From positions 864,001 to 928,000 of the forward strand of contig CAVSOU010000008.1 in NCBI GenBank assembly GCA_963729625.1: a stretch of DNA of 64,000 nt. The letters run 5' to 3'. Position numbers and translations under genes: made by a program. This stretch comes from an uncultured bacterium (lineage in GTDB: Bacteria; Chloroflexota; UBA5177; JANWHV01). Numbering within the stretch: the stretch's first letter is position 1; each line of letters begins with the position of its first letter. This document shows, one piece after another, positions 39,417 through 61,365 of the stretch. The notes below the pieces were generated by a model, which worked only from the letters and a program-made list of their open reading frames with translations, did no database searches and was not told the DNA's origin.

Positions 39417-40706
39417 CTACGCTGGGACTGCCTGGAGCGCCCATGGGCTTGTCTTCACCACGCGGGCGCGCACCAGCCGTCCACGAAGCATCTCCACACC
39501 TCGAGGCATATAGACAAGCTTGCCAGACCGCGTGCGCCCCCGCCATTGCGGCGTATCTTTGCGTGCCGATTGCGCGTCCTCGATCAGCGCCTCCACGGTC
39601 GTGTCCAGGAAAGCCGCGTTCCGGCGCGCGGCTATCGGCTCCTGAAGCGCCTCGACGCGATGGAGCCGCTCCTCCTTGACTTCTTGCGGAATGTCGTCAT
39701 CCCAGGTGGCGGAGACTGTGCCCTCGCGCGGCGAATAGCACGCCGTATGCACTTTGTCGAATTCGCATGCCGCGAGCACGGAGAGCGTTTGTTGGAATTG
39801 TGCTTCCGTCTCACCGGGGAATCCCACGATGATATCAGTCGACAGCGCGACCCCAGGCACGGACGCTCTTATGCGCTCAGCGAGCTCCACGCATGCGGCG
39901 CCGGTGTATCCTCGCCGCATTCGGCGCAGCACGACGTCGTCGCCTGACTGGATCGCTACGTGAATGTGCTCGCATACGCGGGATAGCCGCGCGACCGCCT
40001 CGATCAATCGCTGGTCCATGTTGCGTGGATGTGAGGTCATGAAGCGCACGCGCTCGAGCCCGGGCACCGCATCGACAGCTTGGAGCAGATCGGCGAGGTG
40101 ACTGCGGTCCGGAAGGTCGCGCCCGTAGGTGTCGATGTTCTGGCCGAGAAGCGTCACTTCCTTCACGCCGCGCGTGACAAAGGCCGCGACATCTTCCACC
40201 ACGTCTTCCACCGGCCTGCTACGTTCTCGACCTCGCCGGTACGGGACGATACAGAACGTGCAGAACTTGTTGCAGCCCTGCATGACGGTGAGATAGGTGC
40301 TGACTGGCTGCTCGTAACTCATGACGGGTTCCTGTACGAGTGGAAGACCTGTAATCTCCCGCGCCTCGAGCTGGCTCAAAAAGTGGTCGATCGCGCCCGG
40401 CCGAAAAAAGAAGTCCACCATGGGTAGCTTTCGCTCCATGGCCGCGAGGTCCGGCTCGACGGAGCAGCCCGTCAGCGCGATCATCAAGTCGGGATCGTAC
40501 CGTTTACGATACGCCAGCGCGCCGAGCTGGCCTTGCACACGCTGCTCGGCGCTCTCGCGCACCGTGCAGGAATTGAGTATGACCAGGTCGGCGTCTTCGA
40601 GCGAGGCGACAGGCTTCAGGCCGCGTTTCCGCAGGGCAAGAGAAATCGCCGCACTCTCGGCTACGTTCATCTGGCAGCCGATTGTCCAGACATGAAAACG
40701 GTGCAT
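39417..40706 (-). CDS. miaB: tRNA methylthiotransferase MiaB
   Basis: TIGCQMN, NSCTVRESAE, GCNKFCTFCIVPY, LLGQN, STDIIVGFPGET, TRAM C-terminus. Confidence 0.95.
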   Translation of the reverse strand: MHRFHVWTIGCQMNVAESAAISLALRKRGLKPVASLEDADLVILNSCTVRESAEQRVQGQLGALAYRKRYDPDLMIALTGCSVEPDLAAMERKLPMVDFFFRPGAIDHFLSQLEAREITGLPLVQEPVMSYEQPVSTYLTVMQGCNKFCTFCIVPYRRGRERSRPVEDVVEDVAAFVTRGVKEVTLLGQNIDTYGRDLPDRSHLADLLQAVDAVPGLERVRFMTSHPRNMDQRLIEAVARLSRVCEHIHVAIQSGDDVVLRRMRRGYTGAACVELAERIRASVPGVALSTDIIVGFPGETEAQFQQTLSVLAACEFDKVHTACYSPREGTVSATWDDDIPQEVKEERLHRVEALQEPIAARRNAAFLDTTVEALIEDAQSARKDTPQWRGRTRSGKLVYMPRGVEMLRGRLVRARVVKTSPWALQAVPA

Positions 40707-40803
40707 GTGCGCGCTTGCCGCCCCTCCAGAATGTACAACGATGCTAACGGCATCACATTATGTTGTCAACCAGCCACGGTATACTGCACCCATCTGGACG
40801 CTC

Positions 40804-41697
40804 ATGTCGGACCTACTCGGGAGCGCCTCGTTGAACAATGAGCTCGAGTGCTGGAGTGCGTGGCTGCTACAGTCGCGTCTTCGCGGACCTCGCGGGAAAG
40901 ATACACTCGATTTTCTCACCTCGATTCGCGATCGAGTTTTGGACCGTGCGCAACTTAGCCCGGGCGACTACGTACTTGATATCGGGTCGGGCTATGGACT
41001 GCTTGCTTTCGGCGCACTCCACCGTGTCGGTAACGCTGGTCTGGTAGTCGTCGACGACATTTCGCAAGAGGTGCTGGACGAGTGCGCGCGGATTGCGGAC
41101 GCCGCCCAGGTCGCGCATCGGATGCGCTTCATTCGTAACAGCGCTGTGGAGCTTGCAGACGTACCCGATGCGTCGATCGACGCGGTTCTCACGCGCTCGG
41201 TGCTCATGTACGTGCACGATAAGCGCTCCGTAGTCGCAGAGATTCGCCGCGTGCTGCGCCCAGGCGGACGTATCTCACTGTTCGAGCCCGTCACCACGGT
41301 TGCAATGGATAGACCACTGTTCGGCGTCGATCCCGGGCCCGTTGCCGATCTTGCCGCTCGTGTCGAGGATGCTCTCGATGCATCACAGGGCTCGGACCCC
41401 TCCGTCGCGCCGGACTCCGACGAGCGCGAACTCTTTCGTCTCTTTGACGGAGCGGCGTTCTCGCGCCTGGATCTTGAGCTCCACCTTGGACTTCGGCGCG
41501 AGCGCAAAGACGGACACTGGTTTGACGCCATGCTGGACGGCGGCGTCCACTCGCACGCGGGCACCCTGCGGGAAGCCGTCGAAAAGGCGCTCAGCCCTGA
41601 GGACGCCGATCGCTACCTTGACTACTATCGGCACGCTGCGTCTGGCGCGGGTGTTGCAATACGACACGCTTATGTGTACTTGAGCGGGTGCATCTGA
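40804..41697 (+). CDS. Class I SAM-dependent methyltransferase
   Basis: VLDIGSGYG, TRSVLMYV, RVLRPGGRISLFEP. Start uncertain. Confidence 0.88.
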   Translation: MSDLLGSASLNNELECWSAWLLQSRLRGPRGKDTLDFLTSIRDRVLDRAQLSPGDYVLDIGSGYGLLAFGALHRVGNAGLVVVDDISQEVLDECARIADAAQVAHRMRFIRNSAVELADVPDASIDAVLTRSVLMYVHDKRSVVAEIRRVLRPGGRISLFEPVTTVAMDRPLFGVDPGPVADLAARVEDALDASQGSDPSVAPDSDERELFRLFDGAAFSRLDLELHLGLRRERKDGHWFDAMLDGGVHSHAGTLREAVEKALSPEDADRYLDYYRHAASGAGVAIRHAYVYLSGCI

Positions 41698-41777
41698 CGC
41701 GCCGGCGACCGCGTCCGAATCGCGCGTTTCGGTCGCAATGGACTGCTTGAAGCCGGTATCGCTGAAGAATAGGGGTG

Positions 41778-41786
41778 TGCTATAAT
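41778..41786 (+). promoter_or_regulatory. Consensus extended -10 (TGCTATAAT) upstream of the vWA operon
   Basis: Perfect TGnTATAAT about 150 nt before the vWA start. Confidence 0.6.
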
Positions 41787-41932
41787 CGAACCGCCCAGAG
41801 CATGGGCAGTGCCACGGCTCTTGGCTGGAAGCGAGACGTCGTCCCCTGTGCATTTGAGTTATCCGGTGTGACATGACTCCGGAATGGTCGCTCAAGTCGT
41901 GCAGTGCTACCTGTAAGGAGAGCTGATCCTCC

Positions 41933-43219
41933 ATGCCGACTACCCTTGAGATCATACCCGCTTACGCCAACATCCCCGTTGCTTCCCCTGCGGCGAACTA
42001 TGCGGCAGTCAGGATCCATCCGGATATCGCTGTCCGGGCCCGCCCACAGGTGCAGATCGGCCTCGTTATCGATACCAGTGGCAGCATGGATGGTCAGATA
42101 CAGGCGCGCGGTCAGAGGAAGATCGATCTTGTGAAAGCCGCGGCTGCCAACGTCGTGAACCAGCTTCAGGATGGCGATGCCATCTGCCTCATTGCCTTCT
42201 CGGATCGCGTTCAGATTCTTGTGCCTGCAACCGTAGTAGGGAGCGATCGGACCCGGCTCCTTAACGCGATACGCAATCTTCGCGCCGACGGCGGCACGCT
42301 GATGGGCGATGGTATCGCGGCGGCCCAGCAACAGTTCTATGCCCTGCCCGCGCAAAGTGCCGTGCGCAAGATCGTGGTGCTCACCGATGGCCAGACCAAC
42401 GACGAGGATCGCTGCTATCAGCTCGCGGAGCAGACGCAAATACCGCTCATGCTCGGAGGCATCGGCGATGACTATAACGGACGCCTACTCACCGAGATGT
42501 CCCGGAGCGCGCGCGGAGTGTCCGAGTATATGGATCGCGCCGAGTCCGTGGGAGATTTCTTCAAAGAAGTCCTGGTAACCGTCCAGTCAACCATTCTCAC
42601 GAACGCGGTGCTGCTCATGGACTATCGCCAGCGGTTCCGCCCAAAGCGGATCCATGAAGTAGCTCCCGAGCTGAAGTCGTTTGACTTTACCCCAGTCACG
42701 CCTACCAACCGCCATACCGAAGTGAAGCTGGGCGACGTTCAGCGTGATGGAATGACCCTGCTCGTGGAGTACATTTATGAGGGCGGGGCCGGGTTTGCTA
42801 GCGAGTTCCAGGTGGCCACTCTGACCTTACGGTACGACCAGCCGCCGAACAGCGGGCTTGAAGTCCGCTCAGACGACTTCACCGTGCAATTGGCTGACGT
42901 AACGGGTTTTCCGCCGATGAATCCCGATGTCAAGCAATATGTGGACCACGCGGCAGTCGAGACTGCTCAGACGCAACTGCTGCAGGCTGCTCAGGCCGGC
43001 GACGTGTCGGGCGCGACGCAGAAGCTCAATATTCTGCAGCAGAGCCTCGAGCGCGTTGGAGCGGATCCGAACTTCATTCAGCAGACGGTCAGCACGATGA
43101 AGCTGCAGCTCAAGGACGCGGGGAGTACCGCCGCAATCGCCGACTCCTCGGCTACCAAGAAGTTGACAAGCGGCACGAGAAAACTCGTGCTGCCTCAGAA
43201 TCAAGATCAGGGTTCTTGA
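41933..43219 (+). CDS. von Willebrand factor A (MIDAS) domain protein
   Basis: DTSGSM, GGT, LTDG MIDAS residues, beta-rich middle, helical C-terminus ending TKKLTSGTRKL. AAGGAG RBS. Confidence 0.92.
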   Translation: MPTTLEIIPAYANIPVASPAANYAAVRIHPDIAVRARPQVQIGLVIDTSGSMDGQIQARGQRKIDLVKAAAANVVNQLQDGDAICLIAFSDRVQILVPATVVGSDRTRLLNAIRNLRADGGTLMGDGIAAAQQQFYALPAQSAVRKIVVLTDGQTNDEDRCYQLAEQTQIPLMLGGIGDDYNGRLLTEMSRSARGVSEYMDRAESVGDFFKEVLVTVQSTILTNAVLLMDYRQRFRPKRIHEVAPELKSFDFTPVTPTNRHTEVKLGDVQRDGMTLLVEYIYEGGAGFASEFQVATLTLRYDQPPNSGLEVRSDDFTVQLADVTGFPPMNPDVKQYVDHAAVETAQTQLLQAAQAGDVSGATQKLNILQQSLERVGADPNFIQQTVSTMKLQLKDAGSTAAIADSSATKKLTSGTRKLVLPQNQDQGS

Positions 43220-43360
43220 GGGCATACCCGCCGTTTCTTGCCGGGAGCGGGACGAACCGGAACGGCAGTCCTGCGACGTGGGGAATCTCAGCGGTTGGCG
43301 GCTTCAGCCCTCTCGGCGTTGGCGGAGCGTAGCGGAGTCAAGTGAAAGGATCGTTTGACC

Positions 43361-44125
43361 ATGGTTAAGTGCCCGCAATGCGGTGCGGAGAACTTCCCCG
43401 GTATGGCGTACTGCGAGCAATGTGGCACGGCGCTCCCCACTCCGGAGGTCGCGGTCGCACCGACTCCGGAGACCGCTCAAGCTCCCACGGGCGATACAAG
43501 CGCGGCGGATGCGATTTCCGGCGCTCAAGCACTGATCGACCAGCTCGGAGACGACACGTCCAATGCCGGGCCCACCGCGCAGGAAGCAACGCACCCGGTT
43601 GCGGCCGCAGACGGCGTTGCCTCAGGCCCTGCTGCAGTCGCCGCGCCTGCTGACAACGCGGCGATCGACGCTTCGCCGGCCGCCGCCTCTGCTGCAGGTT
43701 CCGCGCCCATCGACGTCCCTGCCTCCGCTGCGCCCGCACCGGCTCCGCCTGACGGCGCCGCAAGCGGATTCCCGCAGACAGCTGTACCTCTGCCTGCGGC
43801 CACGCTCACGATCACGTTCTCTGACGGCGCCACATTTACTGTGAAGCAAGATGTAGTCAATGTCGGCCGTGCCGACATTGCTCAGAACTGGCATCCAGAG
43901 TTGGACGTCATTCCGTTTGGCGGAGGGGATCCGAATTTCGGCGTGTCACGGCACCAGGCAGTGATACGGCGCGATGGCAGCGCGTTCTCAATCCTCGATG
44001 TCGGCTCAACCAATGGCACGTACGTCAACGGACGCATGCTCGACTACAATAAAGCGGTCGAGCTGCATGACGGCGATGCTATTGCCTTCGGCGCGTTCAA
44101 CGGCAAGATCGGTATCGGTGCCTAA
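43361..44125 (+). CDS. Zinc ribbon + disordered linker + FHA domain protein
   Basis: CPQCG...YCEQCG and the FHA signature VGR...VSRHQA...DVGSTNGTYVNG. Confidence 0.92.
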   Translation: MVKCPQCGAENFPGMAYCEQCGTALPTPEVAVAPTPETAQAPTGDTSAADAISGAQALIDQLGDDTSNAGPTAQEATHPVAAADGVASGPAAVAAPADNAAIDASPAAASAAGSAPIDVPASAAPAPAPPDGAASGFPQTAVPLPAATLTITFSDGATFTVKQDVVNVGRADIAQNWHPELDVIPFGGGDPNFGVSRHQAVIRRDGSAFSILDVGSTNGTYVNGRMLDYNKAVELHDGDAIAFGAFNGKIGIGA

Positions 44126-44155
44126 CGGACGAGTCGATTGCGAACGAGGAGCACT

Positions 44156-44839
44156 ATGGGCAGAATCTGGCGCGTGTTTGGACGCGGCACGAGCGGAGAT
44201 ACGGACCGTCAGAGCGGTACAGATAGGCAAGACAGCACGCACGTGGGAGCCTTTTCGATGAGTGAGACAGGTGGCCAGGCGTCCGCCTCCGACCGCGGGC
44301 CCGACGATACCGCGGAGGACCCCGGCAAAGGAAGTCGCCAGCCAGAGGCTCCGACTGCCGCTGCAGACGGCGAACAGGCCTTGCGGCATGCCGACGCGGT
44401 GCAACAGCCCGCTGTGCGTACTCAGGCTGAAGGTGGTAACACGACGCGCGCCGAGACCCTCCCGACCGCGCCGATACAAGATCCCGACTCAGCGCTCGTC
44501 GCGCCCTCACTCGCGGCCCCTGCGCCAGCAGGTGACGAGACCCTTCCCGTGGCGCCGCTGGTAGAAGCTCCCGATCTAACTCTCGCCCTAGCAGCCGAAG
44601 CCACCCTCCCTGCGGGAAACGAATCCCGCGAGGCGGCAGCAGGCGCTGCAGTGAGCAACGTCGAATCACCTGCGCCAGGAGCGCCGCAGGACCATGACAC
44701 TGCGCCGCAGGCAGAGGTTCCGCCCAGATCAGTGACTCCGACACCGGATCGCCGGAGAGCATCGCGCCTCTGGCCTCCGCGTCGGAGATGGCAATCGGTA
44801 CGCTGCTTGCCGACCGCTTCACCGTCCTGCGCGAGCTGA
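44156..44839 (+). CDS. Low-complexity ORF, probably the frameshifted N-terminal part of the PP2C gene
   Basis: GAGGAG RBS, Ala/Pro/acidic composition that turns Arg-rich after about 44720, overlap with the next ORF. Confidence 0.6.
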   Translation: MGRIWRVFGRGTSGDTDRQSGTDRQDSTHVGAFSMSETGGQASASDRGPDDTAEDPGKGSRQPEAPTAAADGEQALRHADAVQQPAVRTQAEGGNTTRAETLPTAPIQDPDSALVAPSLAAPAPAGDETLPVAPLVEAPDLTLALAAEATLPAGNESREAAAGAAVSNVESPAPGAPQDHDTAPQAEVPPRSVTPTPDRRRASRLWPPRRRWQSVRCLPTASPSCAS

Positions 44840-45900
44840 CGCCCGATGCGGCGTCCACGCTACTGGGAGGACCCCTTCCTTCCGACACAACGACTTTCTA
44901 TGCGGTCGAAGATCGTGTCTACAACGAGCATTGCTGGGCCTGTGGCTCGACGCACAACGATCCAAGCGATCACACGCAGCGCTTCTGTGTTGACTGCGGA
45001 GCGCCAAGACAGCACGAGTGGGTTCTCGCGCGCGCCGCCGCGCCGGCGGGCACCTCTGATGAGATTGACTACGGAGATGCCTTCTACCGCGTCCTGCACC
45101 GGCGCAAGCAGTTTGGCAGCGGCGGCATGGCGGTTGAGGTGGCTGCATTTAGCGCCGAGGGGCCCCATCACCCCAACGAAGATAGCTGTTGGACCGCAGT
45201 GATGTCAGGCTGCTACAACTCCAAGGCGGACGCAGTTTGCGTCGCGGTGGTGGCCGATGGGATGGGCGGCTATGCTCCAGGAAGCGGACTGATCAGTAAA
45301 GAGATCGTGAGCACTGTCGGCACCTACGTTTTCGGCCGGATCACCGTCGATCGCGAAAGCGCCCTCAGCGATGCTGATCTGCGCGGCACCGTGCGCGAGG
45401 CCATCGCGGAGGCCAATCGCAGAGTACTGGAAGAAATTGCCAGACATGGCGAGATGGGTGCGACGCTCGTTGTGGCGATAATCTACGGGCGCACGGCTTA
45501 TTTGGCGAACATAGGCGATAGCAGGGCGTACTACGTGTCGCCATCGGGCGAAGTCGAACAGATCACGCGTGACCAATCACTCGTCCAGCAGCAAGTCTCG
45601 CTTGGCCTGATGCGCGCCGATGCCGTGTTCACGGCAGCAGGTAACAATGTGATTCTCCACGCGGTGGGCGAGGAGCGCGTTGAAGAGGTGTTCGACTGGT
45701 ACGTACAGGTACTTGAGCCGAACTGCTGTGTGCTGCTCTGTACGGATGGCTACTGGAAAACCATGCGACAGGATATCTGGAGCATCTCCTCTCCACCTGT
45801 GGAATCATCGTTGCATGGCCTCGCAGAGAGGCTGGTGCAGACGGCGATTGACCAGAACTCGGATGACAATACGTCCGTCATCCTGATCGGCGTCGAGTAG
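44788..45900 (+). CDS. Zinc ribbon + PP2C/PPM family Ser/Thr phosphatase
   Basis: CWACG...FCVDCG, NEDS, VADGMGG, ANIGDSRAY, ITRDQS, LCTDG, DNTS. Confidence 0.9.
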   Translation: MAIGTLLADRFTVLRELTPDAASTLLGGPLPSDTTTFYAVEDRVYNEHCWACGSTHNDPSDHTQRFCVDCGAPRQHEWVLARAAAPAGTSDEIDYGDAFYRVLHRRKQFGSGGMAVEVAAFSAEGPHHPNEDSCWTAVMSGCYNSKADAVCVAVVADGMGGYAPGSGLISKEIVSTVGTYVFGRITVDRESALSDADLRGTVREAIAEANRRVLEEIARHGEMGATLVVAIIYGRTAYLANIGDSRAYYVSPSGEVEQITRDQSLVQQQVSLGLMRADAVFTAAGNNVILHAVGEERVEEVFDWYVQVLEPNCCVLLCTDGYWKTMRQDIWSISSPPVESSLHGLAERLVQTAIDQNSDDNTSVILIGVE

Positions 45901-45938
45901 CTGTAGTCGGCGTGCCGCCAGCATACTAGGGAAACGTC

Positions 45939-46502
45939 ATGGGCATCCTGGAACGTGCAGCGAACCTGCTCGAACGTGTGCAGGGCCGGACGACGGCGAT
46001 GACACAGCAGGCAGCCCGACGCGTGCGCTGCGCCCCAGAGATCGCGGCTCTCGATGGGCGCCTCGCGACTCTCCGAGCTCAGCTCGAGCAATCCGTGTCC
46101 GAGGTCGGAAAGCTCGCTTTTCGCCAGTGGAAGAACGGCGACGCCAGCCAAGCCGATGCCATAAAGGCGCTATGCCGGGCCATCGACGGCATGAACGGCG
46201 ACTACCAGCAGCTGCTCGGCGAACTTGCGGATCTCAGAGCCTCGGCGTCAGTTCCCACCGCGCGGGTGGAGCTGTCCCGTTCGAGCTGCTACATCGCTCT
46301 TGGCTCTGCACAGCCCGCGGCGTCGGCAGCTGAGCAAGTAGATGCTAGTTTGGCCTCGGCTCGTACCGGTGGCATCCTGGGTACGCATGGCGTTGGAGCG
46401 GAGCTGGTCACGCCAGGTCGGACGAAGCGATGTCCTGAGTGCTTCGCGGATGTACCAGGATCTCAGCAGTACTGCCCTACGTGTGGCATTCGCATGGAGT
46501 GA
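45939..46502 (+). CDS. Coiled-coil protein with C-terminal zinc ribbon
   Basis: Amphipathic N-terminus, heptad helices, CPEC...YCPTCG. Confidence 0.8.
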   Translation: MGILERAANLLERVQGRTTAMTQQAARRVRCAPEIAALDGRLATLRAQLEQSVSEVGKLAFRQWKNGDASQADAIKALCRAIDGMNGDYQQLLGELADLRASASVPTARVELSRSSCYIALGSAQPAASAAEQVDASLASARTGGILGTHGVGAELVTPGRTKRCPECFADVPGSQQYCPTCGIRME

Positions 46503-46511
46503 GATAGATTG

Positions 46512-47018
46512 ATGGACGTGCTCAAGGCTGCAGGTAGGGTGGGCTCGGCCGGGCGTCACGTGGTGGCCGCCGCGGTGCAGCAGAAGCAACTGGAGACAGA
46601 ACGAGAGGTCCTCGCCGAGCTGCGTTCCGACGCTCTTACCCTGAGGGCGCAGATCGGCGAGGAGATGTTCAAGCTCTGGAAGGCTGGACAACCGTGCCCG
46701 CGCTGGCTCGACGAGATCTGCCAGTCCCTGGAAAGCACTTCCGCGGCTATTGCCCGGCAGCGCGCGATCATCGCTCAACTAGTCGAGGGCGGCGTACCTG
46801 CCGGCGACAACGAGACTCACCAGACCGTAACGGCGCCAGCGATCGAAGTGGTCGAGGCGCCTGCCACGCTCCTTGAGGCCGAGCCTGCTTCGCCTCCGCG
46901 GATTACGGCCGGCACGATACCGCAACCCGACCCGCCGTGCGTCACGTGCCCTAGCTGTGGTGAAGCCGAAGTGGGCGGAAGGCGCTTCTGCGGTTTCTGC
47001 GGAACAAAGCTTTCGTAG
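46512..47018 (+). CDS. Coiled-coil protein with C-terminal zinc ribbon (paralog of the upstream gene)
   Basis: IGEEMFKLWKAG...ICQSLE matches VGKLAFRQWKNG...LCRAID of the upstream gene. CPSCG...FCGFCG. Confidence 0.8.
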   Translation: MDVLKAAGRVGSAGRHVVAAAVQQKQLETEREVLAELRSDALTLRAQIGEEMFKLWKAGQPCPRWLDEICQSLESTSAAIARQRAIIAQLVEGGVPAGDNETHQTVTAPAIEVVEAPATLLEAEPASPPRITAGTIPQPDPPCVTCPSCGEAEVGGRRFCGFCGTKLS

Positions 47019-47129
47019 GCTGCTGCTACCACACGCATCCGGGCGCGGGCTGGCGGAGATCCGTGCCCGCCAGGTACACTAACAGCGCGCCTGGCCGGCA
47101 ACAACGATGGCTATAGTTGGAGATAGAGC

Positions 47130-48326
47130 ATGCCCGACGACGAGAGCGATGATCAGCCTGGTGAGAATCCGGGCGTAGAGCCCGAGGGGGACTCGGAGGA
47201 GCGGCCCAGCAAAGGTCCGGTCACCGTGCAACGGCGCACGCGCAGGCCGCGCCCGGTGCCGCGTACGGGGTATGTCCCCGGTCGCCGGCCGCGCGTGGAA
47301 GAGACCCATTCGATGAGTCCCTACGTCGTGCCGGTCGTGGCACTTGTCGCACTCGTGGCGCTGCTCCTAGCGCTCGTCGTCGCCAAGGTGCACAATTCGA
47401 CTACCGCATCTCCGGGCCCAACGGCGACGGCGACGGTAGCCCCGGTGACCCCCAGCGCGACACCGCGCCCGACGAGCACGCCGATGAAGATTGCGACGCC
47501 GCTCACGACGAAGGCCGGCGTGGCGGCAGAGGTGAATGGCGAGTCGATTCCTATGAGCCTCTACGTGGACTACTCCAACTCAGCGCTCAACCAGCTTCAG
47601 GTGGATCACCAGGACGCCACCACGGGCGCGACAATCAAGGCTGTCGACGTGCGAACAGCGGCGGGGAAGGCGGCTGTGAAGAAGACGCGGCAGCAGATTC
47701 TGGACAGTTTGGTCAAGAACTACCTTCTCGTCGCGTACGCGCGGGATCATCATCTGATGCCGACCCAGCTGGAAATCACCACCGTTCTCTCCGGGTACTA
47801 TAGCCAGGGCGGCGGCAAGGACGCCTTCATGAAGATGGCGCAGGACCAGGGATTCTCGGCTGCCGACGTCAATGAGATAGCGTCGACAACGGCAGCCATC
47901 CAATCCGTGATGACCAAGGTGACCGCGAATGTTTCCTGCAAGCCATGCGGCGAGCGACACGCGCGTCACATTCTGCTCAAGGCGACGGACCAGAAGCTGG
48001 CGTTGACTGTAGCGAAGCACTTGCAGGCAGACAAGGGGTCAGATTTCGCGGCCTACGCCAAGAAGTACTCGACCGACACCGGTAGCGCCAAGCAGGGCGG
48101 AGACCTGGGTTGGTTCGCCCAGACCGACATGGTGAAGGAATTCGGCGATGCTGCGTTTGCGCTCAAGATCGGCCAGGTGAGCAATCCGGTAAAGTCTACC
48201 TACGGCTGGCACGTGATTCAAGTCCTGGGCGAGCGTGCTTCGGCGACTCAGAAGAGCGACTACTTCACTGCATGGGCGAGCAAGCTGCAGAAGACATCGG
48301 TTGAGCACACGTACGTGAAGATATAG
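47130..48326 (+). CDS. Membrane-anchored PrsA/SurA-like parvulin peptidyl-prolyl isomerase
   Basis: TM helix, Thr/Pro linker, AEVNGESI, ARHIL, YSTDTGS..QGGDLGWF, VKSTYGWHVI. Confidence 0.92.
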   Translation: MPDDESDDQPGENPGVEPEGDSEERPSKGPVTVQRRTRRPRPVPRTGYVPGRRPRVEETHSMSPYVVPVVALVALVALLLALVVAKVHNSTTASPGPTATATVAPVTPSATPRPTSTPMKIATPLTTKAGVAAEVNGESIPMSLYVDYSNSALNQLQVDHQDATTGATIKAVDVRTAAGKAAVKKTRQQILDSLVKNYLLVAYARDHHLMPTQLEITTVLSGYYSQGGGKDAFMKMAQDQGFSAADVNEIASTTAAIQSVMTKVTANVSCKPCGERHARHILLKATDQKLALTVAKHLQADKGSDFAAYAKKYSTDTGSAKQGGDLGWFAQTDMVKEFGDAAFALKIGQVSNPVKSTYGWHVIQVLGERASATQKSDYFTAWASKLQKTSVEHTYVKI

Positions 48327-48359
48327 GCGATCGGCGTATCTCTTCGGCTGAGAGATCTG

Positions 48360-48388
48360 GGAGGCCGCCTCTGTTCAGGGCGGCCTCC
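48360..48388. terminator. GC-rich hairpin after the PPIase gene
   Basis: GGAGGCCGCC/GGCGGCCTCC 10-bp stem with no U-tract. Confidence 0.4.
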
Positions 48389-48522
48389 TGGCGTCGGGCG
48401 AGAGGTTCGTCGCCGTCGCCTGAAGCAGCACGGAGTTTGGCGTATCGCTCTTGGACGATGCTGGTACACTCCTCACCAGGCTGGAGAGAAGGCCCAGCTT
48501 CCAGCGGTCTGCGAGGAGTTCC

Positions 48523-50433
48523 GTGTCCGTAGTACTGGTTGATTCGCTCCTGTCAGCGCGACTGTTTCTCGTTCCACAGCTTGCCGGCGAGCGCCTCTAC
48601 TTCGTGAGTAACATGAGCGGACGGCTGAGTCTGTACGCCATGGACGCAAGCGGAAGTGTACCGGAACCGCTGTTGCCTCCCGGCATTGCGCTGCAGAATC
48701 CTGAGCTGGTCGGCGGGCATTTGTTTCGCGTGTGCGCGGATCTGGGCGTTATCTGCGTGATGATCGATCGGGATGGCGACGAGAACTACCAGCCAATGGT
48801 TATCCCGCTTGATGGAGGTATACCGGAGTCCGCATTCAGCGATCACTTTGCGGATTGCCGCGTGCATCTTGAAGGCGGCGACGTCGAAACTGGGATCGTG
48901 TACCTCGTTGCCGAGATGCGCCACGAATCACTGAGCACCGCGTACCAGGCCGACCTGAGGACGCGCGAGCTCACGCCGATGTTTGCCAGTCGGTACAGCC
49001 TCAACGTGCGAGCATGGTCCGAGGATCACGTCTGTGCGGCCATCACCGAAGAGTACTCAGTCGGCGACGTCGTGCTCAGGCTGTGGGACAGAGCTCGGAA
49101 CGGCGCCCGGTTGCTGTTCGGAACGCCGATTGAGGAACGCGGGCAGTCCAAGGACGTTCCTCTCACCGGCTTCAGCTCTGGGTGTTTCACGGACGACCAG
49201 CGTAGCTATCTCTGCGTTACGGGCATTTTCGACGACACGTTCGGCCTGGGGCGCATCCATCTCGATGCTCCTCACATGATCGACCCGGTGCGAATCCTGA
49301 ACGCCCGGCATGAAGGAAGGGGCATCCTTGTCTCGATTCAGCGGCTGAAGAACGACCGCTACCTGGCCGGCTACAATATCGATGGAAGCTCCTGGCTCTA
49401 CGAAGGCAGGATCGACGAAGCGACGCTCGAGCTGACGCTCGCGCGTACGCTTTGCGGCACCGAATCGCTCGCTGATGGCGTGCTGGAGTCTACGCACTAT
49501 GACACGTCGAGTGATCGGCTTGCTTTTTCTTTCTCCAACGCGGTTTCGCCGACACAGCTGTTCGTCGTCGACCGTTCCTCCGCAAGCATTCCGCGCCAGT
49601 TGACGCGCGAGCGCGTGTTGGCTGTGCCGCGAGCACATCTATCGCGCGGAGAAGACGCGTCGTTTACGTCGTTCGATGGTCTCAGCATTTCCGCTCGGCT
49701 CTACATGCCCGCGCCTGCCCTCGGTTTTGAAGGACCGCGACCGCTCGTCTACTATATCCACGGCGGTCCTCACAGCCAGGAACGACCGGACTTCGCCTGG
49801 TTCTCCATGCCGTTGATTCAGATTCTCACGCTGAATGGCTTCGCCGTGTTCGTCCCCAATGTGCGGGGCAGCAACGGCTATGGGCTCTCTTTTGTGAAGA
49901 AAGTGGATCGTGACTGGGGCGGCGCTGATCGGCTTGACCACGTGCATGCGATGCGAATTCTTGGCAGTGACCAGCGTCTTGACGTGACTCGCGCAGGCGT
50001 CGTCGGTCGCTCCTATGGCGGGTACATGACGCTCACCCTGGCCGCGCGCCACCCCGAGCTGTGGTCCGCTGCTGTCGACATGTTTGGACCATACGATCTG
50101 CTCACCTTCCTGGAACACATACCACCGACCTGGCGACCCGAGTTCAAGATCATGCTCGGGGACGCGGTACACGACCGAGACTTTCTCGTCGAGCGGTCGC
50201 CGGTCACCTACATTGGCAATGTGTCCTGCCCGATGCTGGTAATCCAAGGGAAGAACGATCCGCGCGTCGTCGAATCGGAATCACGCGCGGTGGTGGCGTC
50301 GCTTCGAGCGATGGGGAAGAGCGTCGAGTATCTGCTCTTCGAGAACGAAGGTCACGATGTTCTGAAGCACGAGAATCGGGTGACCTGCTACAGCGCAATC
50401 ACCGGCTTCTTCGCCAGGCACCTCCGGCCATAG
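48523..50433 (+). CDS. S9 family (acylaminoacyl/prolyl oligo) peptidase
   Basis: IHGGP, PNVRGS.GYG, GRSYGG (Ser), NDPRV (Asp), EGH (His). Confidence 0.93.
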   Translation: MSVVLVDSLLSARLFLVPQLAGERLYFVSNMSGRLSLYAMDASGSVPEPLLPPGIALQNPELVGGHLFRVCADLGVICVMIDRDGDENYQPMVIPLDGGIPESAFSDHFADCRVHLEGGDVETGIVYLVAEMRHESLSTAYQADLRTRELTPMFASRYSLNVRAWSEDHVCAAITEEYSVGDVVLRLWDRARNGARLLFGTPIEERGQSKDVPLTGFSSGCFTDDQRSYLCVTGIFDDTFGLGRIHLDAPHMIDPVRILNARHEGRGILVSIQRLKNDRYLAGYNIDGSSWLYEGRIDEATLELTLARTLCGTESLADGVLESTHYDTSSDRLAFSFSNAVSPTQLFVVDRSSASIPRQLTRERVLAVPRAHLSRGEDASFTSFDGLSISARLYMPAPALGFEGPRPLVYYIHGGPHSQERPDFAWFSMPLIQILTLNGFAVFVPNVRGSNGYGLSFVKKVDRDWGGADRLDHVHAMRILGSDQRLDVTRAGVVGRSYGGYMTLTLAARHPELWSAAVDMFGPYDLLTFLEHIPPTWRPEFKIMLGDAVHDRDFLVERSPVTYIGNVSCPMLVIQGKNDPRVVESESRAVVASLRAMGKSVEYLLFENEGHDVLKHENRVTCYSAITGFFARHLRP

Positions 50434-56603: not shown

Positions 56604-57576
56604 CTATCGTTTGCCTACACGCCGAACACTTGGCGCACGCGTTCGATCGGTGACGAAGGCCTGCACGTCGGGGTAACGAGCGTCAGCACTCATGCTCAGG
56701 GCGCGCGCCAACGCGGACTCAACGGCCGGGTTCAATTCTGGCACGAGGTCACACGCTGGCGGGAACTGGAACGGCATATGCCGCTTCGGGTCCCTGCCGG
56801 TGAGCATGTGATTCAGACTTGCAGCGAGCGCGTACTGGTCTGGCCGCGGCTCCGCCATGCCCTGGTACAGTTCAGGTGGTGCGTAGCCCGGCGTCCCGAT
56901 CGTGGTACCGCCTGTTGCCATGGCTGGCCTCGCCACGCCGAAATCGATGAGCATAACCTGCCCATCCGGACGGAGCATGAAGTTCTCCGGTTTGAGATCG
57001 CGGAACACGGTAGGTGGAACGCGACTGTGCAGGTAATCGAGCGCCTCGGCCAACTGCTTTGCCCACCCAAGGACCTCCGACTCGGGTAATCCCGGCGCAC
57101 CTCGCGACGCGATCTCGCTCTCAACGGTCCTGCCCGGTACCATCTGCAGGACAAGTCAGCCACTCGTCTGCTCCTCCAACCAGTCCTTAATGTCGCTGAT
57201 ATGCGGATGGGAAAGGCTAGCCAAGATGGTCGCTTCGCGCTGGAACAATACACGCCCTTGCGGCGCAGCGTCCGGCAATGGTATGTGCTTCAGCGCGCAT
57301 GCTCGGCACGCGAGGCGTTCATCAACAGCCCGCCTGTCACACACTGCCCATGTTGCCGGAGCCAAGGCGAGAACCCACGCGGTAACGACCGCCAACGAGC
57401 AGGCCAGGTTGAACGACTACCGTCTGTGGTCCCTGCGGCCCACGCGTTGGCTGAGCCTGGACAACTCCAGCGTTCTCGCTGCTTGGCGCTGCAGCGAGCG
57501 AGATTCCGTAGTGCGGGCACTGTTTGTCCGAGGCGATCACTGGCCGGCCGCACGATGGTCAGGCACCACTTGCCAT
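56604..57576 (-). pseudogene. Zinc ribbon + Hanks-type Ser/Thr kinase pseudogene
   Basis: GGAGG RBS, MASGA*PSCG...QCPHYG, GRY...LGSGNMGSV, ALK, REATIL..LSHP, FRDLKPEN, IDFG, GTPGYAPPE. Stops at 57559, 57337 (with frameshift) and 57156. Confidence 0.9.
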
Positions 57577-58004: not shown

Positions 58005-61000
58005 CTAGTTCGTGACCGAGCTATGCGTCAGCGTAAACCTGCTCTGAGCGCCGCTTGCTAGCGTCACGCCCACGGCGACGCATTCGTCTGCACTGGCGCA
58101 GCTCACGGCTCGCGGCTCTAGTCCTGCCACGTTCAGTGGTTCCGCGATCCAGGAGACACCGCCGTCCTCGCTGTCAAGCACAAAGGCCCCGTCCCCCGAC
58201 CCCCCGCCCCAGGCTCCCACAGCAAAGCAGATCCGGGTATCGGGGCAACTGACCGCTTGCAGCCCCCAGGCGCTCGTCGCCTGTATGCTCCACGTAGCAC
58301 CGGCGTCCGCAGTTCGCAGGATAGAGCGATCTCCAACGGCCACGCAGACGCGCTCGCTTGAACAGCTCACACCGACTGGATTGGTCATGAGGCCGGTATC
58401 TAGCCACCGCTGAGTCCATCTCACGCCACCGTCGTCGCTGGTGAGGATGACACCGTACGCTGGCAACGCGTCCGGAAAACCTGGTGAGTCCGCCATTCCG
58501 CCCACGGCTACACAGGCGCGAGCACTCGCACAGACCACGCCGTTAAGGACGGTGTTGCGATCGACAGTCTGGCGCGTCCAGTGGACCCCACTGTCGCGAC
58601 TGACAAAAATGACCCCTGGCTGTCCCCCAGCGACGCACAACCCTTCGCTCCTGCAACTGACGCTGGCGGCCCCCCACGCGCCAAACCCCGACTGATCCCG
58701 CATCCCAAGCCGTTCAGTCCACGTCATACCGCCATCACTGCTACTCAGGATGATGCCGCCTTTCGACCCGTTACCGGCGGTGACGCACGCACTGTCGCTT
58801 GCGCAATCGACGGCATAGAGTTCAATCGCGCTCGGTACTCCCCTACCGGTCCAGCTGACGCCTCCGTCCGTGCTTGTGAAGACCTCGCCACCGTGACCAC
58901 CATTGCCGACGGCCACGCACCGGCGCGCCGTGGGGCAGCTTATGCCGTGCAGTATTGCGTTCGCCCCCAAGTCACGGCGAGTCCATTTGCTCACCCCATA
59001 GGCGTTGGTCAAGATGGTTCCGTCAGAGCCCACAATTACGCACGCGTTTGCGGCGGCGCACGAGACATCGCTCGGCAAGGAACCCGGGTGCTCCTGGTTC
59101 CAGCTGGCCCCACCATCCATGCTGATTAGGATGCCGCGGGAGTAGACGGCCACGCATGCGGTAGGAGTCGGACAGCTGACGCTGGCTAGATCATCGTTGC
59201 TTATGAGCGGATTGCTGTGGCGAATCCAGCTCACGCCTCCATCGGCGCTGGTCAGAGTAATGCCGCTCGGGCCCACGGCTACGCATGTGACCAGGTTGGA
59301 GCACGTGACACTAGTCAGGCTCTGATTGGGGCCGCGCACCGGACTGATTTGCTGGGTCCATGTGGCGCCACGGTCGACACTCGTCAGCACGGCGTCGCCC
59401 ACAACTACGCACCTGTTCACGTTCGGGCAGCTCACGCTGTCGAGAATCGCATTGTCAGACACCGGACTCGGGCGCTGCGTCCAAGTCGCACCACCGTCAG
59501 CGCTCTCTTCTATTACACCGTGGTCTCCAACAGCCACGCACACGTCTACCGTCGCACAGCTTACCCGGTCGAGCAACGCACCGCGATCACCCGTGGGAGG
59601 AACCGAAGGACGGACGATCCACGTCCTCCCACCGTCGGAGCTTGTGAGAACGCTGGTGCCTTTTCGCCAGGAATCGCCAAGGCCCAGTGCCACGCAGCTG
59701 CCACCGCCTAGGCAGGTAACGCTCACCAGCTGGTCGCCCGTCCCAGACGTTCGATTGATCCACGTAGCGCCGACGTCTGTGCTCTGAAGGATACTACCCC
59801 TTGCGCCCACGGCCACGCAGAGGTCGATCTTCGGGCAGCTCACGCTGTTCAAATCGTATCCCGTGTCAGATGCAGGGTCCGCGCGCGCGATCCACGTTGA
59901 ACCACCGTCCCGGGTGGTCGCGATGGTTCCATCCCCGCCCACAGCCACGCAGAAGCTCTGGCCTGTGCAGCTGATGGCGTTTGGCAGCCAGTGCGACAGC
60001 CCCGAGGCGTGGCTGGCCCAGGTGGCGCCTCCGTCAGAACTGCTGATGAGGGTGCCCTCCCCGCCCACGGCCATGCAGAAGCTCTTGCTCGCGCAGCTCA
60101 CACCGCGCAAATCTTCGCTCGTGCCGGAGTCTCGCGCGGACCACGTCAGGCCGCCGTCCACGCTCATCAGCACGGTGCCGCCGGCGCCAACGGCCACGCA
60201 AGCGCTCTTGCAGTCAACACCATAAAGGGCCGGAGTCGTGTTCGGGCGCGTTCCCCAGGTCGCGCCACCGTCTCCGGTAACGAGCAGCCCGCCGCTATCG
60301 CCCACTACCACGCATATGCCCGTTCCCGAGCAGCTCACGGCATTCAGGGAGGAGCTGGCGTCCGTATTGACTTGTCGCCAGGTGATTCCTCCATTCTCCG
60401 TCGTGTTAACGCGACCGTTCTCCCCCACAGCCATGCAGTACTTCGTGCTCAGGCAACTGACACCTCGTAGGACTGAGTCAAAACTGGACGTCGGCTGCCG
60501 CCAAGTGCTACCGCCATCCGCGCTGACTGCCACGCTGCCTTCGTCGCCGGAGGCACCGACAACGACGCACAAAGCCGGCGCCGCGCAACTGACGCTGTAA
60601 ATGTCCTGACCGGCGGAGAACGCTTCTACGGCAGGATTCACACGGCGCGTCCACGTGGCCCCGTCATCACTACTGACCAGCAGCGTACCGTTCCTGCCCA
60701 CGGCTACGCATTCGGGCGTGGTTGCGCAGCTGACGCCAGCTAGCGGTTCACGCCTCGCCGGCACAGCGTGCCATATCCACGCGGTGTGCAGCGCGGAAAG
60801 CTCGCTGGAGTGCGTGGGTGTAGGTGGCGGCACTGGCGTTCCACCGCCCGTAGAGTTCCCCGGCGTCGCCGTAAGCACCGGGCCGAGCGGGGAGTAGGCA
60901 ACAGGGTGCGAGCCTCCTCCGCCAAGGATTCGCACGATCGCTGTCGCCGCGACGATCAGCACTACAAGGCAGGCAATGACTACTAGACGACGCGAGGGTC

Positions 61001-61220
61001 TTGACAGGGGTTCACGTCTTGTTCGTAGGCTCGGAGATGCCGAGCCGGGTTCGTCCGCGCTCGCAGTCTGCTGGTGGCCGAGACGAGAACTCGGCGTGCT
61101 CTTCTCCGCCGTGCCGCCTTCTGCGCCTAAGGAAGCAGGCAGTGCGGCGCCACACCTGCCACAGAACGCGTGATCTGGCGCGCTATCGAACCCGCACTGC
61201 CCACACCGAGACGTTGGCAT
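58005..61220 (-). CDS. Zinc ribbon + TM + extracellular BNR/Asp-box beta-propeller repeat protein
   Basis: CGQCG...FCGRCG, one TM helix (LVVIACLVVLIVAATAIV), Pro/Thr linker, 21 VSC-x(3-5)-C-xAVG units with about 20 S.DGG.TW boxes. Confidence 0.88.
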   Translation of the reverse strand: MPTSRCGQCGFDSAPDHAFCGRCGAALPASLGAEGGTAEKSTPSSRLGHQQTASADEPGSASPSLRTRREPLSRPSRRLVVIACLVVLIVAATAIVRILGGGGSHPVAYSPLGPVLTATPGNSTGGGTPVPPPTPTHSSELSALHTAWIWHAVPARREPLAGVSCATTPECVAVGRNGTLLVSSDDGATWTRRVNPAVEAFSAGQDIYSVSCAAPALCVVVGASGDEGSVAVSADGGSTWRQPTSSFDSVLRGVSCLSTKYCMAVGENGRVNTTENGGITWRQVNTDASSSLNAVSCSGTGICVVVGDSGGLLVTGDGGATWGTRPNTTPALYGVDCKSACVAVGAGGTVLMSVDGGLTWSARDSGTSEDLRGVSCASKSFCMAVGGEGTLISSSDGGATWASHASGLSHWLPNAISCTGQSFCVAVGGDGTIATTRDGGSTWIARADPASDTGYDLNSVSCPKIDLCVAVGARGSILQSTDVGATWINRTSGTGDQLVSVTCLGGGSCVALGLGDSWRKGTSVLTSSDGGRTWIVRPSVPPTGDRGALLDRVSCATVDVCVAVGDHGVIEESADGGATWTQRPSPVSDNAILDSVSCPNVNRCVVVGDAVLTSVDRGATWTQQISPVRGPNQSLTSVTCSNLVTCVAVGPSGITLTSADGGVSWIRHSNPLISNDDLASVSCPTPTACVAVYSRGILISMDGGASWNQEHPGSLPSDVSCAAANACVIVGSDGTILTNAYGVSKWTRRDLGANAILHGISCPTARRCVAVGNGGHGGEVFTSTDGGVSWTGRGVPSAIELYAVDCASDSACVTAGNGSKGGIILSSSDGGMTWTERLGMRDQSGFGAWGAASVSCRSEGLCVAGGQPGVIFVSRDSGVHWTRQTVDRNTVLNGVVCASARACVAVGGMADSPGFPDALPAYGVILTSDDGGVRWTQRWLDTGLMTNPVGVSCSSERVCVAVGDRSILRTADAGATWSIQATSAWGLQAVSCPDTRICFAVGAWGGGSGDGAFVLDSEDGGVSWIAEPLNVAGLEPRAVSCASADECVAVGVTLASGAQSRFTLTHSSVTN

Positions 61221-61365
61221 CTCTGGGCTCCCCTGGCCCTGCACGAAGGCCCGGCCATAAGCACGCGCATGCTTGATCGCCTCAAAGCCTAGCCGAAACG
61301 GCAGCAGAGAGTAAGGGCCATTCGTCACCGCGATAGCCGCTGAGTACCTCATTCACTGCCTGGGA

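What the first reader, a model, noticed from the sequence alone, without database searches (positions are those of the whole stretch)
41778..47018. Candidate undescribed zinc-ribbon-tagged phospho-signalling or conflict operon: vWA, ZnR-FHA, ZnR-PP2C and two coiled-coil-ZnR genes
Seen: five co-oriented, closely spaced genes behind a consensus TGnTATAAT promoter. They encode an intact-MIDAS vWA, a phospho-Thr reader (FHA), an eraser (PP2C) and two paralogous coiled-coil proteins. Four of the five carry the same CxxC-x(10-15)-[FY]CxxCG ribbon next to Ala/Pro-rich linkers. No kinase is in the operon. Known: vWA+PP2C+kinase triads (TerY-P) act in stress response and anti-phage defence, and FHA domains bind pThr. 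Inference: the ribbon is a shared docking tag that assembles a complex on the vWA scaffold, and the Thr-rich vWA tail (ATKKLTSGTRKL) is a candidate FHA-bound phosphosite. I do not recognise this exact five-gene layout as a characterised system, although vWA/FHA/PP2C neighbourhoods in general are widespread.
Basis: partly seen in the sequence, partly recalled or inferred. Interest (0 to 1): 0.75.

Follow-up and report, generated by a model that had tools for sequence, protein, structure and literature searches.

The report
Bacterial ArnA/ArnB-like switch with coiled-coil partners
Five neighbouring genes of an uncultured Chloroflexota bacterium encode a scaffold and a phosphothreonine reader whose closest solved relatives are the archaeal ArnB/ArnA pair, plus a phosphatase and two unnamed coiled-coil zinc-ribbon proteins, so they likely form a bacterial protein-phosphorylation switch that is probably driven by a nutrient-sensing membrane kinase encoded inside the operon in some relatives and elsewhere in this genome.

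Summary
The five genes, promoter, MIDAS, FHA motifs and four ribbons are real. Two corrections: the phosphatase gene starts at 44156 and is split by a frameshift (one ORF in 23 of 23 orthologues), and a kinase does belong with the operon in part of the lineage. A zinc-ribbon/kinase/membrane/amino-acid-binding-domain receptor sits between the FHA and PP2C genes in 3 of 4 congeners; this genome keeps its orthologue (78%) on another contig. Profiles of the vWA and ribbon-FHA proteins each rank Sulfolobus ArnB and ArnA first among solved structures, and threonines line up with ArnB phosphosites. The kinase-less five-gene order recurs in 10 of 19 close metagenomic loci that reach the phosphatase. 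No defence evidence: PADLOC negative, housekeeping flanks. This scan has reported ArnA/ArnB-like operons on other genomes before, and a vWA/kinase/FHA/PP2C operon is described in Deinococcus. New here: the coiled-coil-ribbon pair and the receptor kinase. Verdict: new variant of a known kind; output unknown.

The parts
41778..41786 (+). Extended -10 promoter element TGnTATAAT, about 150 nt before the vWA start; function inferred
   Evidence: Sequence; kept in 9 of 9 close relatives, 25 copies genome-wide; no -35 match, so not listed by the consensus scan
41933..43219 (+). ArnB-type vWA protein, 428 aa: split beta-sandwich, vWA with intact MIDAS, C-terminal helical bundle with T362, T385, T388, T408, T412, T415
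   Evidence: 8S05_A, E 1.2e-29, profile positions 1-406; pLDDT 89; 4FX5 TM 0.72; 8S05 TM 0.68/0.76
43361..44125 (+). ArnA-type protein, 254 aa: N-terminal zinc ribbon (C4, C7, C18, C21), acidic Ala/Pro linker, FHA with GR, SRxH, NGT
   Evidence: (top hits 5A8I and 8S05_C, E about 1e-15, ribbon+linker and FHA both matched)
44156..44839 (+). 5' part of the phosphatase gene: short predicted amphipathic N-terminus and long acidic Ala/Pro linker; frame runs on to a stop at 44839
   Evidence: (matches the N-terminus of the 545-aa single ORF of G001)
44698..44790 (+). Interval that holds the frame change splitting the phosphatase gene (assembly error or real mutation: undecided)
   Evidence: no public contig covered it
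44788..45900 (+). 3' part of the phosphatase gene, 370 aa: CW-type zinc ribbon and PP2C domain with NED, DGMGG, DG and DDN metal-binding motifs; His in place of the usual motif-1 Arg, conserved in the lineage
45939..46502 (+). CC1, 187 aa: predicted helical hairpin (residues 3-103), low-complexity linker, C-terminal zinc ribbon
46512..47018 (+). CC2, 168 aa: distant paralogue of CC1 (20% identity) with the same layout
   Evidence: (one hairpin profile hits both, E 1e-32 and 1e-26)

Best explanation
The operon likely encodes a bacterial version of the ArnA/ArnB phosphothreonine switch, in which the vWA protein is the predicted hub, the ribbon-FHA protein its predicted reader, the PP2C the likely eraser, and a membrane receptor kinase, encoded elsewhere in this genome, the probable writer. 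Shown here: domain content, full-length homology and fold match to ArnB and ArnA, intact MIDAS/FHA/PP2C motifs, conserved gene order, and the kinase gene inside the operon of relatives. Inferred from the archaeal pair: in the resting state the FHA protein's ribbon docks weakly on the beta-sandwich/helical-bundle face of the vWA protein; a Hanks kinase phosphorylates threonines of the C-terminal bundle (T362, T385, T412, T415 are the candidates); the bundle loosens and the FHA domain clamps the phosphothreonines, giving a tight complex; PP2C resets it. Inferred from gene context: the input is an extracellular amino acid or similar small ligand bound by the kinase's Leu/Ile/Val-type binding domain. 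CC1 and CC2 are accessory (lost in some relatives); my guess is that they are adaptors whose hairpins oligomerise or sit at the membrane while their ribbons bind pathway members. The cellular output is not determined; a nutrient- or stress-dependent change of lifestyle is the most likely by analogy.
For: vWA profile ranks ArnB (8S05_A) first over nearly the whole length; single-sequence search agrees; model has the three-domain fold and matches 4FX5, 8S05, 5A8J, then Sec23/24. Ribbon-FHA profile ranks ArnA first. T362 (94 of 97 homologues) aligns with ArnB T322 and T385 (75 of 97) with T343 in the profile alignment; the tail LTSGTRKL (T415 in 87 of 97) resembles ArnB ITSEVTKKL holding T371/T375, and T385-T415 spans 30 residues against 32 for T343-T375. 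ArnB T322 and T375 are phosphorylated in vitro. A ribbon(-FHA) gene follows the vWA gene in 27 of 30 close metagenomic loci, the other 3 end there. 29 of 80 distant loci hold vWA, FHA and PP2C, 24 of the 29 also a kinase (my count). Receptor kinase between FHA and PP2C in G002, G003, G004; orthologue in G000 at C7:638158-640803 with intact catalytic motifs and one membrane helix; its outer domain matches Leu/Ile/Val-binding proteins.
Against: No binding or phosphorylation was measured or modelled. The three-domain fold is widespread and mostly not phospho-regulated according to PMC12852372, and the paralogue ArnE does not bind ArnA; the Catenulispora protein 4FX5 matches as well as ArnB. The tail alignment to ArnB T371/T375 is a motif resemblance without statistical support, and T343 is not phosphorylated in vitro. 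The receptor kinase is in the operon only in one subclade; most close loci lack any kinase gene there, and the genome has 25 kinase-like ORFs, 8 with a ribbon, so the cognate kinase is not fixed. The phosphatase gene is frameshifted in this assembly.
Confidence: 0.68

Rival explanations
1. Deinococcus-type push-pull module: the FHA protein and the PP2C act mainly on autophosphorylated kinases of the cell (FHA boosts, PP2C erases), and the vWA protein is a passive scaffold whose tail is not the main phosphosite.
For: Shown in vitro for DRA0333 and DRA0334 in a vWA/kinase/FHA/PP2C operon (bioRxiv 10.64898/2026.01.23.701218). The genome has 25 kinase-like ORFs and only 2 PP2C hits, and the operon often has no kinase gene.
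Against: It does not explain the conserved threonines of the vWA tail or the highly conserved ribbon of the FHA protein. DRA0334 has a KI-FHA domain; this PP2C has no FHA hit. The two models can coexist.
Confidence: 0.15
2. In this strain the operon is decaying: the kinase gene has left and the phosphatase gene is truly broken, so the switch lacks its reset or uses a shortened phosphatase made from the internal ATG at 44788.
For: The frame change is in the assembly; the internal ATG has no well-spaced ribosome-binding site; clear frameshifts were uncommon among 94 orthologous ORFs tested (ours and 1 other after inspection).
Against: The closest relative G001 (vWA 96%) has the same kinase-less layout with an intact 545-aa phosphatase; the 3' part keeps all catalytic motifs and 74% identity; other split genes exist in this assembly, including 2 of 25 kinase-like loci, as expected for indel errors.
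Confidence: 0.1
3. Anti-phage or conflict system of the TerY-P kind: vWA, PP2C and a kinase form an infection-triggered switch.
For: TerY-P triads and some GTPase-centric conflict systems use vWA + PP2C + kinase with a zinc ribbon (PMC11090510; PMC7159879). CC genes and the kinase vary in presence.
Against: No PADLOC family at E below 0.001 for any of the six ORFs (best: Cas12c coiled-coil 0.0013, PDC-M21C 0.005). Flanks are housekeeping (miaB, cytochrome b/Rieske, Lon, PPIase); GC is that of the window; flanking genes are syntenic in G001 and G002; present in 5 of 5 genomes of the genus; vWA protein 96-83% conserved; no match in plasmid or phage collections; no nuclease, ATPase or toxin domain.
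Confidence: 0.07

Closest known systems
ArnA/ArnB module of Sulfolobus acidocaldarius with kinase ArnC and phosphatase PP2A (PDB 8S05, 5A8I, 5A8J; PMC12852372, PMC6509490)
   Same: Adjacent genes for a ribbon-linker-FHA protein and a beta-sandwich/vWA/helical-bundle protein; each is the other's top solved relative by profile; intact MIDAS; Thr-rich bundle of similar length ending in a T[RK]KL-like motif.
   Different: Bacterial; about 20% identity; the phosphatase is a co-encoded PP2C with its own ribbon and long linker, not a PP2A; the likely kinase is a membrane receptor with a solute-binding domain; two coiled-coil-ribbon genes; no archaellum, so the output must differ.
DRA0331-DRA0334 operon of Deinococcus radiodurans (bioRxiv 10.64898/2026.01.23.701218)
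   Same: vWA, membrane Ser/Thr kinase, FHA protein and PP2C with a long N-terminal part in one operon.
   Different: Order differs; DRA0334 is described with a KI-FHA domain, this PP2C has a ribbon; no coiled-coil-ribbon genes described; the text has no occurrence of 'zinc' or 'ArnB'. Sequence homology to DRA0331 was not tested.
PknG-GlnH-GlnX-GarA/OdhI amino-acid sensing of Actinomycetota (PMC6069109, PMC9769921; abstracts' starts only) and kinase + ANF-receptor fusions of Nostoc (PMC1262709, passages)
   Same: A solute-binding domain feeds a Ser/Thr kinase, with an FHA protein downstream.
   Different: Here sensor and kinase are one membrane protein with an N-terminal ribbon, the binding domain is of the Leu/Ile/Val type, and a vWA hub is present.
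TerY-P triad (as defined in PMC11090510, passages)
   Same: vWA + PP2C (+ kinase) and zinc ribbons.
   Different: Three-domain ArnB-type vWA, FHA reader, ribbon N-terminal to the kinase instead of C-terminal, no restriction or tellurite genes nearby, no PADLOC match.

Membership tests
ArnA/ArnB module | vWA protein with split beta-sandwich, vWA and C-terminal helical bundle | tested here: met
   (8S05 TM 0.68/0.76, E 4e-26)
ArnA/ArnB module | Intact MIDAS | tested here: met
   D47/S49/S51/T122/D152 in 96-97 of 97 homologues
ArnA/ArnB module | Partner with N-terminal Cys4 zinc ribbon, disordered linker and FHA with pThr-binding residues, encoded next door | tested here: met
   adjacency in 27 of 30 close loci
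ArnA/ArnB module | Extended Thr-rich end of the helical bundle (present in ArnB, missing in ArnE) | tested here: met
   T362, T385, T388, T408, T412, T415 kept in 21-24 of 24 close homologues; length comparable to ArnB; exact register at the very end is not statistically supported
ArnA/ArnB module | Ribbon binds the vWA protein at the beta-sandwich/bundle face | not tested
ArnA/ArnB module | Bundle threonines are phosphorylated and bound by the FHA domain | not testable with these tools
   Needs biochemistry
ArnA/ArnB module | Represses archaellum expression / controls pili | not testable with these tools
   Bacterial host; output unknown, hence 'ArnA/ArnB-like', not a member in the strict sense
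TerY-P triad | TerY-like vWA, PP2C-like and kinase genes together, kinase with C-terminal ribbon or OB-fold | tested here: not met
   No kinase in the window; in relatives the ribbon is N-terminal and the C-terminus is a solute-binding domain; definition
TerY-P triad | Match to defence-system models or defence-island context | tested here: not met
vWA-MoxR / GTPase-centric conflict systems (PMC7159879) | MoxR, iSTAND, FtsH or DO-GTPase component and variable effector domains | tested here: not met
   No NTPase or effector among the six ORFs or their flanks; paper seen as passages only
PP2C (PPM) phosphatase | Metal-binding Asp of motifs 1, 2, 8, 11 | tested here: met
   NED, DGMGG, DG, DDN present; motif-1 Arg is His (the usual Arg is recalled, and seen in distant homologues); below the NCBIfam Stp1 cut-off, 132 against 230 bits
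PspA/Vipp1/ESCRT-III (considered for CC1/CC2) | Sequence or fold match beyond a generic helical hairpin | tested here: inconclusive
   Pfam PspA_IM30 E 0.076; Shrub Z 11.0, rmsd 1.0 over 73 residues, tied with designed hairpins; no PspA/Vipp1 chain among the 60 shown of 74 profile hits

The most novel reading that the evidence does not exclude
This would be a complete bacterial receptor-to-hub pathway on the Sec23/24-core fold, with trans-acting ribbons as an addressing code that some of the genome's 36 ribbon proteins share.
Probability: 0.22. Interest if true: 0.68.

Novelty: new variant of a known kind. Interest (0 to 1): 0.4.

Why it matters
How ArnA/ArnB turns phosphorylation into an output is still open in Sulfolobus (PMC12852372), and my literature searches found no paper that describes a bacterial ArnA-plus-ArnB pair as such. 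This lineage offers a compact, mesophilic-looking set of parts with a named candidate input (a solute-binding receptor kinase), a co-encoded eraser and two uncharacterised adaptors, all expressible for reconstitution. It also puts a first pathway context on a widespread unnamed hairpin-plus-ribbon protein family. The kind of system is not new, and this scan has met it repeatedly, so interest is moderate.

Tried and rejected
Complex prediction (vWA with the CC2 ribbon) was not available; nothing was folded, so ribbon docking is untested. The protein Atlas gave no answer for CC1. Sequencing runs: no RNA holder listed; contigs of four DNA runs did not cover the frameshift. Rfam: no family in 40000-49000. 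No intrinsic terminator in the vWA-FHA gap or after CC2 by the consensus scan. PspA/ESCRT-III reading of CC1/CC2: only generic hairpin matches. Pseudokinase remnant in the PP2C N-terminal part: a kinase profile hit only 1 of 7 proteins tested, a distant homologue, not the window's; left as unproven. Whether the kinase was gained in or lost from the operon: the tree is the quick one, the careful search did not finish, the root is unsure, and at least two changes are needed; undecided. CC homologues elsewhere in the phylum (26 genomes outside the genus among 301 searched) are single genes with no vWA, FHA or PP2C within 1.5 kb; 3 of 26 lie next to a kinase. vWA profile found no match at E 1e-30 in 16 other genomes of the class, 58-97% complete: not found in those searched. 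FraH: only one review passage found. Six distant metagenomic loci (L205-L210) of the 36 returned were not analysed. Programmed frameshifting was rejected because 23 of 23 orthologues are single ORFs.
Full report
Observation. The ORF list and sequence show the five co-oriented genes. Pfam gives VWA (E 7e-20), FHA (7e-15) and PP2C (4e-11) above cut-off, and sub-threshold zinc-ribbon matches for the FHA protein, CC1 and CC2. The four ribbons have 9, 13, 9 and 9 residues before the aromatic. The genome (5.4 Mb, 87% complete) has 36 ORFs with this motif, so four in five adjacent genes is no accident, though the motif is common in this organism. The TGnTATAAT at 41778-41786 is rare genome-wide (25 copies) and conserved in the 9 closest relatives examined, but not as an exact match in 14 more distant ones. 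Named homologues at 83-86% identity are Chloroflexota.

The phosphatase gene is longer than an ORF finder shows. An ORF from ATG 44156 overlaps the PP2C ORF in another frame; the PP2C frame is open from 44698. In G001 one 545-aa ORF starts with the same N-terminus and ends with the PP2C; G002, G003, G004 and 19 metagenomic loci also have single ORFs of 534-729 aa. No public contig covers the site. Of 94 congener ORFs mapped to this genome, 6 were flagged as multi-frame; inspection left ours and one other clear split, and 2 of 25 kinase-like loci are split as well. An assembly indel is somewhat more likely than a real lesion, but this is undecided.

The core pair. The vWA protein's best PDB match is 8S05_A, Sulfolobus ArnB; a 97-sequence profile matches it over positions 1-406 at E 1.2e-29, just ahead of Catenulispora 4FX5 (with a profile of close relatives only, 4FX5 ranks first and 8S05 second). 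The AlphaFold model (pLDDT 89) has a split beta-sandwich, the vWA domain and a C-terminal helical bundle, and Foldseek returns 4FX5, 8S05, 5A8J and then Sec23/24 among the leading rows. A 56-sequence profile of the ribbon-FHA protein ranks ArnA (5A8I, 8S05_C) first, matching ribbon, linker and FHA. PMC12852372 (abstract, introduction, results 2.1-2.3, discussion read) shows that the ArnA ribbon binds ArnB weakly at the beta-sandwich and bundle, that ArnC phosphorylates bundle threonines (T353, T363, T375 early; T322, T335 later), and that the FHA domain then binds tightly. Here T362 aligns with T322 and T385 with T343, and the tail resembles ArnB's T371-T375 stretch; T362, T385 and T415 are kept in 94, 75 and 87 of 97 homologues. 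The same paper says the fold is widespread and mostly not phospho-regulated, and the paralogue ArnE does not bind ArnA (PMC6509490 passages), so the fold alone proves little; the adjacent ArnA-type gene and the long Thr-rich tail are what carry the inference. Supplements of these papers were not read and may list bacterial homologues.

The kinase. In G002, G003 and G004 a gene for an 876-902-aa protein lies between the FHA and PP2C genes: ribbon, Hanks kinase, one membrane helix, periplasmic-binding domain. All 5 genomes of the genus have it; in G000 it is at C7:638158-640803 (78% to G002's) and in G001 also apart from the operon. Its catalytic motifs are intact and its outer domain matches Leu/Ile/Val-binding proteins (E 1e-14). 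Kinases fused to such domains are known (PMC1262709 passages), and solute-binding control of PknG is a precedent (search listing).

Conservation of layout. The metagenome scan returned 36 loci; I analysed the 30 close ones. A ribbon(-FHA) gene follows the vWA gene in 27; the other 3 end there. 19 reach the PP2C gene. The exact kinase-less five-gene order stands in 10 of these 19, which collapse to 5 clusters at 95% vWA identity, at 65-67% identity to the window. A receptor-type kinase follows the FHA gene in 4 loci (2 cut by the contig end) and a different, probably inactive ribbon-kinase in 1. One CC gene only is seen in 4 loci, 2 more are cut by contig ends within CC1, and none follows PP2C in L182 or in G002. 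So vWA-FHA-PP2C is the fixed core, and the kinase and CC genes are variable. Among 80 distant loci, 29 hold vWA, FHA and PP2C and 24 of those a kinase, in Chloroflexia, Ktedonobacteria and Nitrospirota (my count); none has the CC pair in the operon.

CC1 and CC2. They are distant paralogues, predicted as a helical hairpin, a flexible linker and a ribbon. Proteins of this layout are widespread but the hairpin has no Pfam or NCBIfam family and only generic structural matches. Elsewhere in the phylum they are mostly single genes among housekeeping genes. Their pairing with the switch is thus a trait of this lineage, which fits an accessory role.

Shared tag. That points to distinct, selected binding surfaces and neither proves nor excludes a common site.

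Defence. PADLOC gave nothing credible for the six ORFs and only domain-level matches of housekeeping enzymes among 38 other window proteins. Flanks are miaB, cytochrome b/Rieske, Lon, a methyltransferase and a PrsA-like isomerase, partly syntenic in congeners. No plasmid or phage homologue at the thresholds used. TerY-P as defined in PMC11090510 (passages) does not fit.

Prior knowledge. A vWA/kinase/FHA/PP2C operon has been studied in Deinococcus (bioRxiv 10.64898/2026.01.23.701218; abstract, introduction, passages and most of the discussion read), without examining the vWA protein in the parts I read. Searches for ArnA/ArnB with vWA and FHA, for vWA+FHA+PP2C+zinc ribbon+operon, for Chloroflex*+FHA+vWA and for ArnB+Sec23 found no paper on this layout; the library lacks most subscription journals. 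Earlier notes of this scan reach the ArnA/ArnB reading for at least 16 other genomes; I had reached it before opening them, and they gave the Deinococcus lead. None found by sequence or by 'coiled-coil' words covers this lineage.

Verdict. Real, conserved, and best read as a bacterial ArnA/ArnB-like phosphothreonine switch (0.68) with lineage-specific additions. New variant of a known kind; interest 0.40.

Noticed in passing
G000:C7:638158-640803 (L041): Stand-alone receptor kinase (ribbon, Hanks kinase, membrane helix, Leu/Ile/Val-type binding domain), orthologue of the kinase inside the operon of G002-G004; G001 has a second, partial-length relative at C12:139751-140923.
   Followed up: yes
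G000:C11:86931-88721 and 88879-90147 (L037 8932-12148): Second ArnB-type vWA protein with what looks like an N-terminal J domain (HPD motif, read by eye) and a similar tail, divergently beside a Ser/Thr kinase; a second vWA match is present in all 5 genomes of the genus.
   Followed up: partly
G000:C10:9621-10049 and C8:1007921-1008838: Two more hairpin-plus-ribbon proteins of the CC family outside the operon.
   Followed up: no
G000:C10:988497-998800 and C8:951896-1025258: Dense clusters of ribbon-tagged genes: six within 10 kb on C10, and about ten, several with kinase or FHA domains, near the end of C8.
   Followed up: no
window 56604-57395 (- strand): Ser/Thr kinase gene in two pieces; another split kinase at C6:6746-8241.
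   Followed up: partly
window 58005-61352 (- strand): 1115-aa ORF with an N-terminal ribbon and repeats matching Ycf48/F510_1955-type propeller families below cut-off, next to the split kinase.
   Followed up: no
window 43220-43360: 141-nt GC-rich gap between the vWA and FHA genes that can fold (-52 kcal/mol, no shuffle control); no Rfam match.
   Followed up: partly
L199 12050-13201: A different ribbon-kinase, lacking a DFG motif and so probably inactive, fills the kinase slot between FHA and PP2C in a more distant relative.
   Followed up: partly
L064, L072, L073: Nitrospirota loci with PP2C, vWA, ribbon-FHA, an FHA-vWA-FHA-ribbon fusion and a kinase.
   Followed up: no
window 4248-6884 (- strand): Rho with an unusually long N-terminal extension (878-aa ORF, Rho domain from residue 510).
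   Followed up: no
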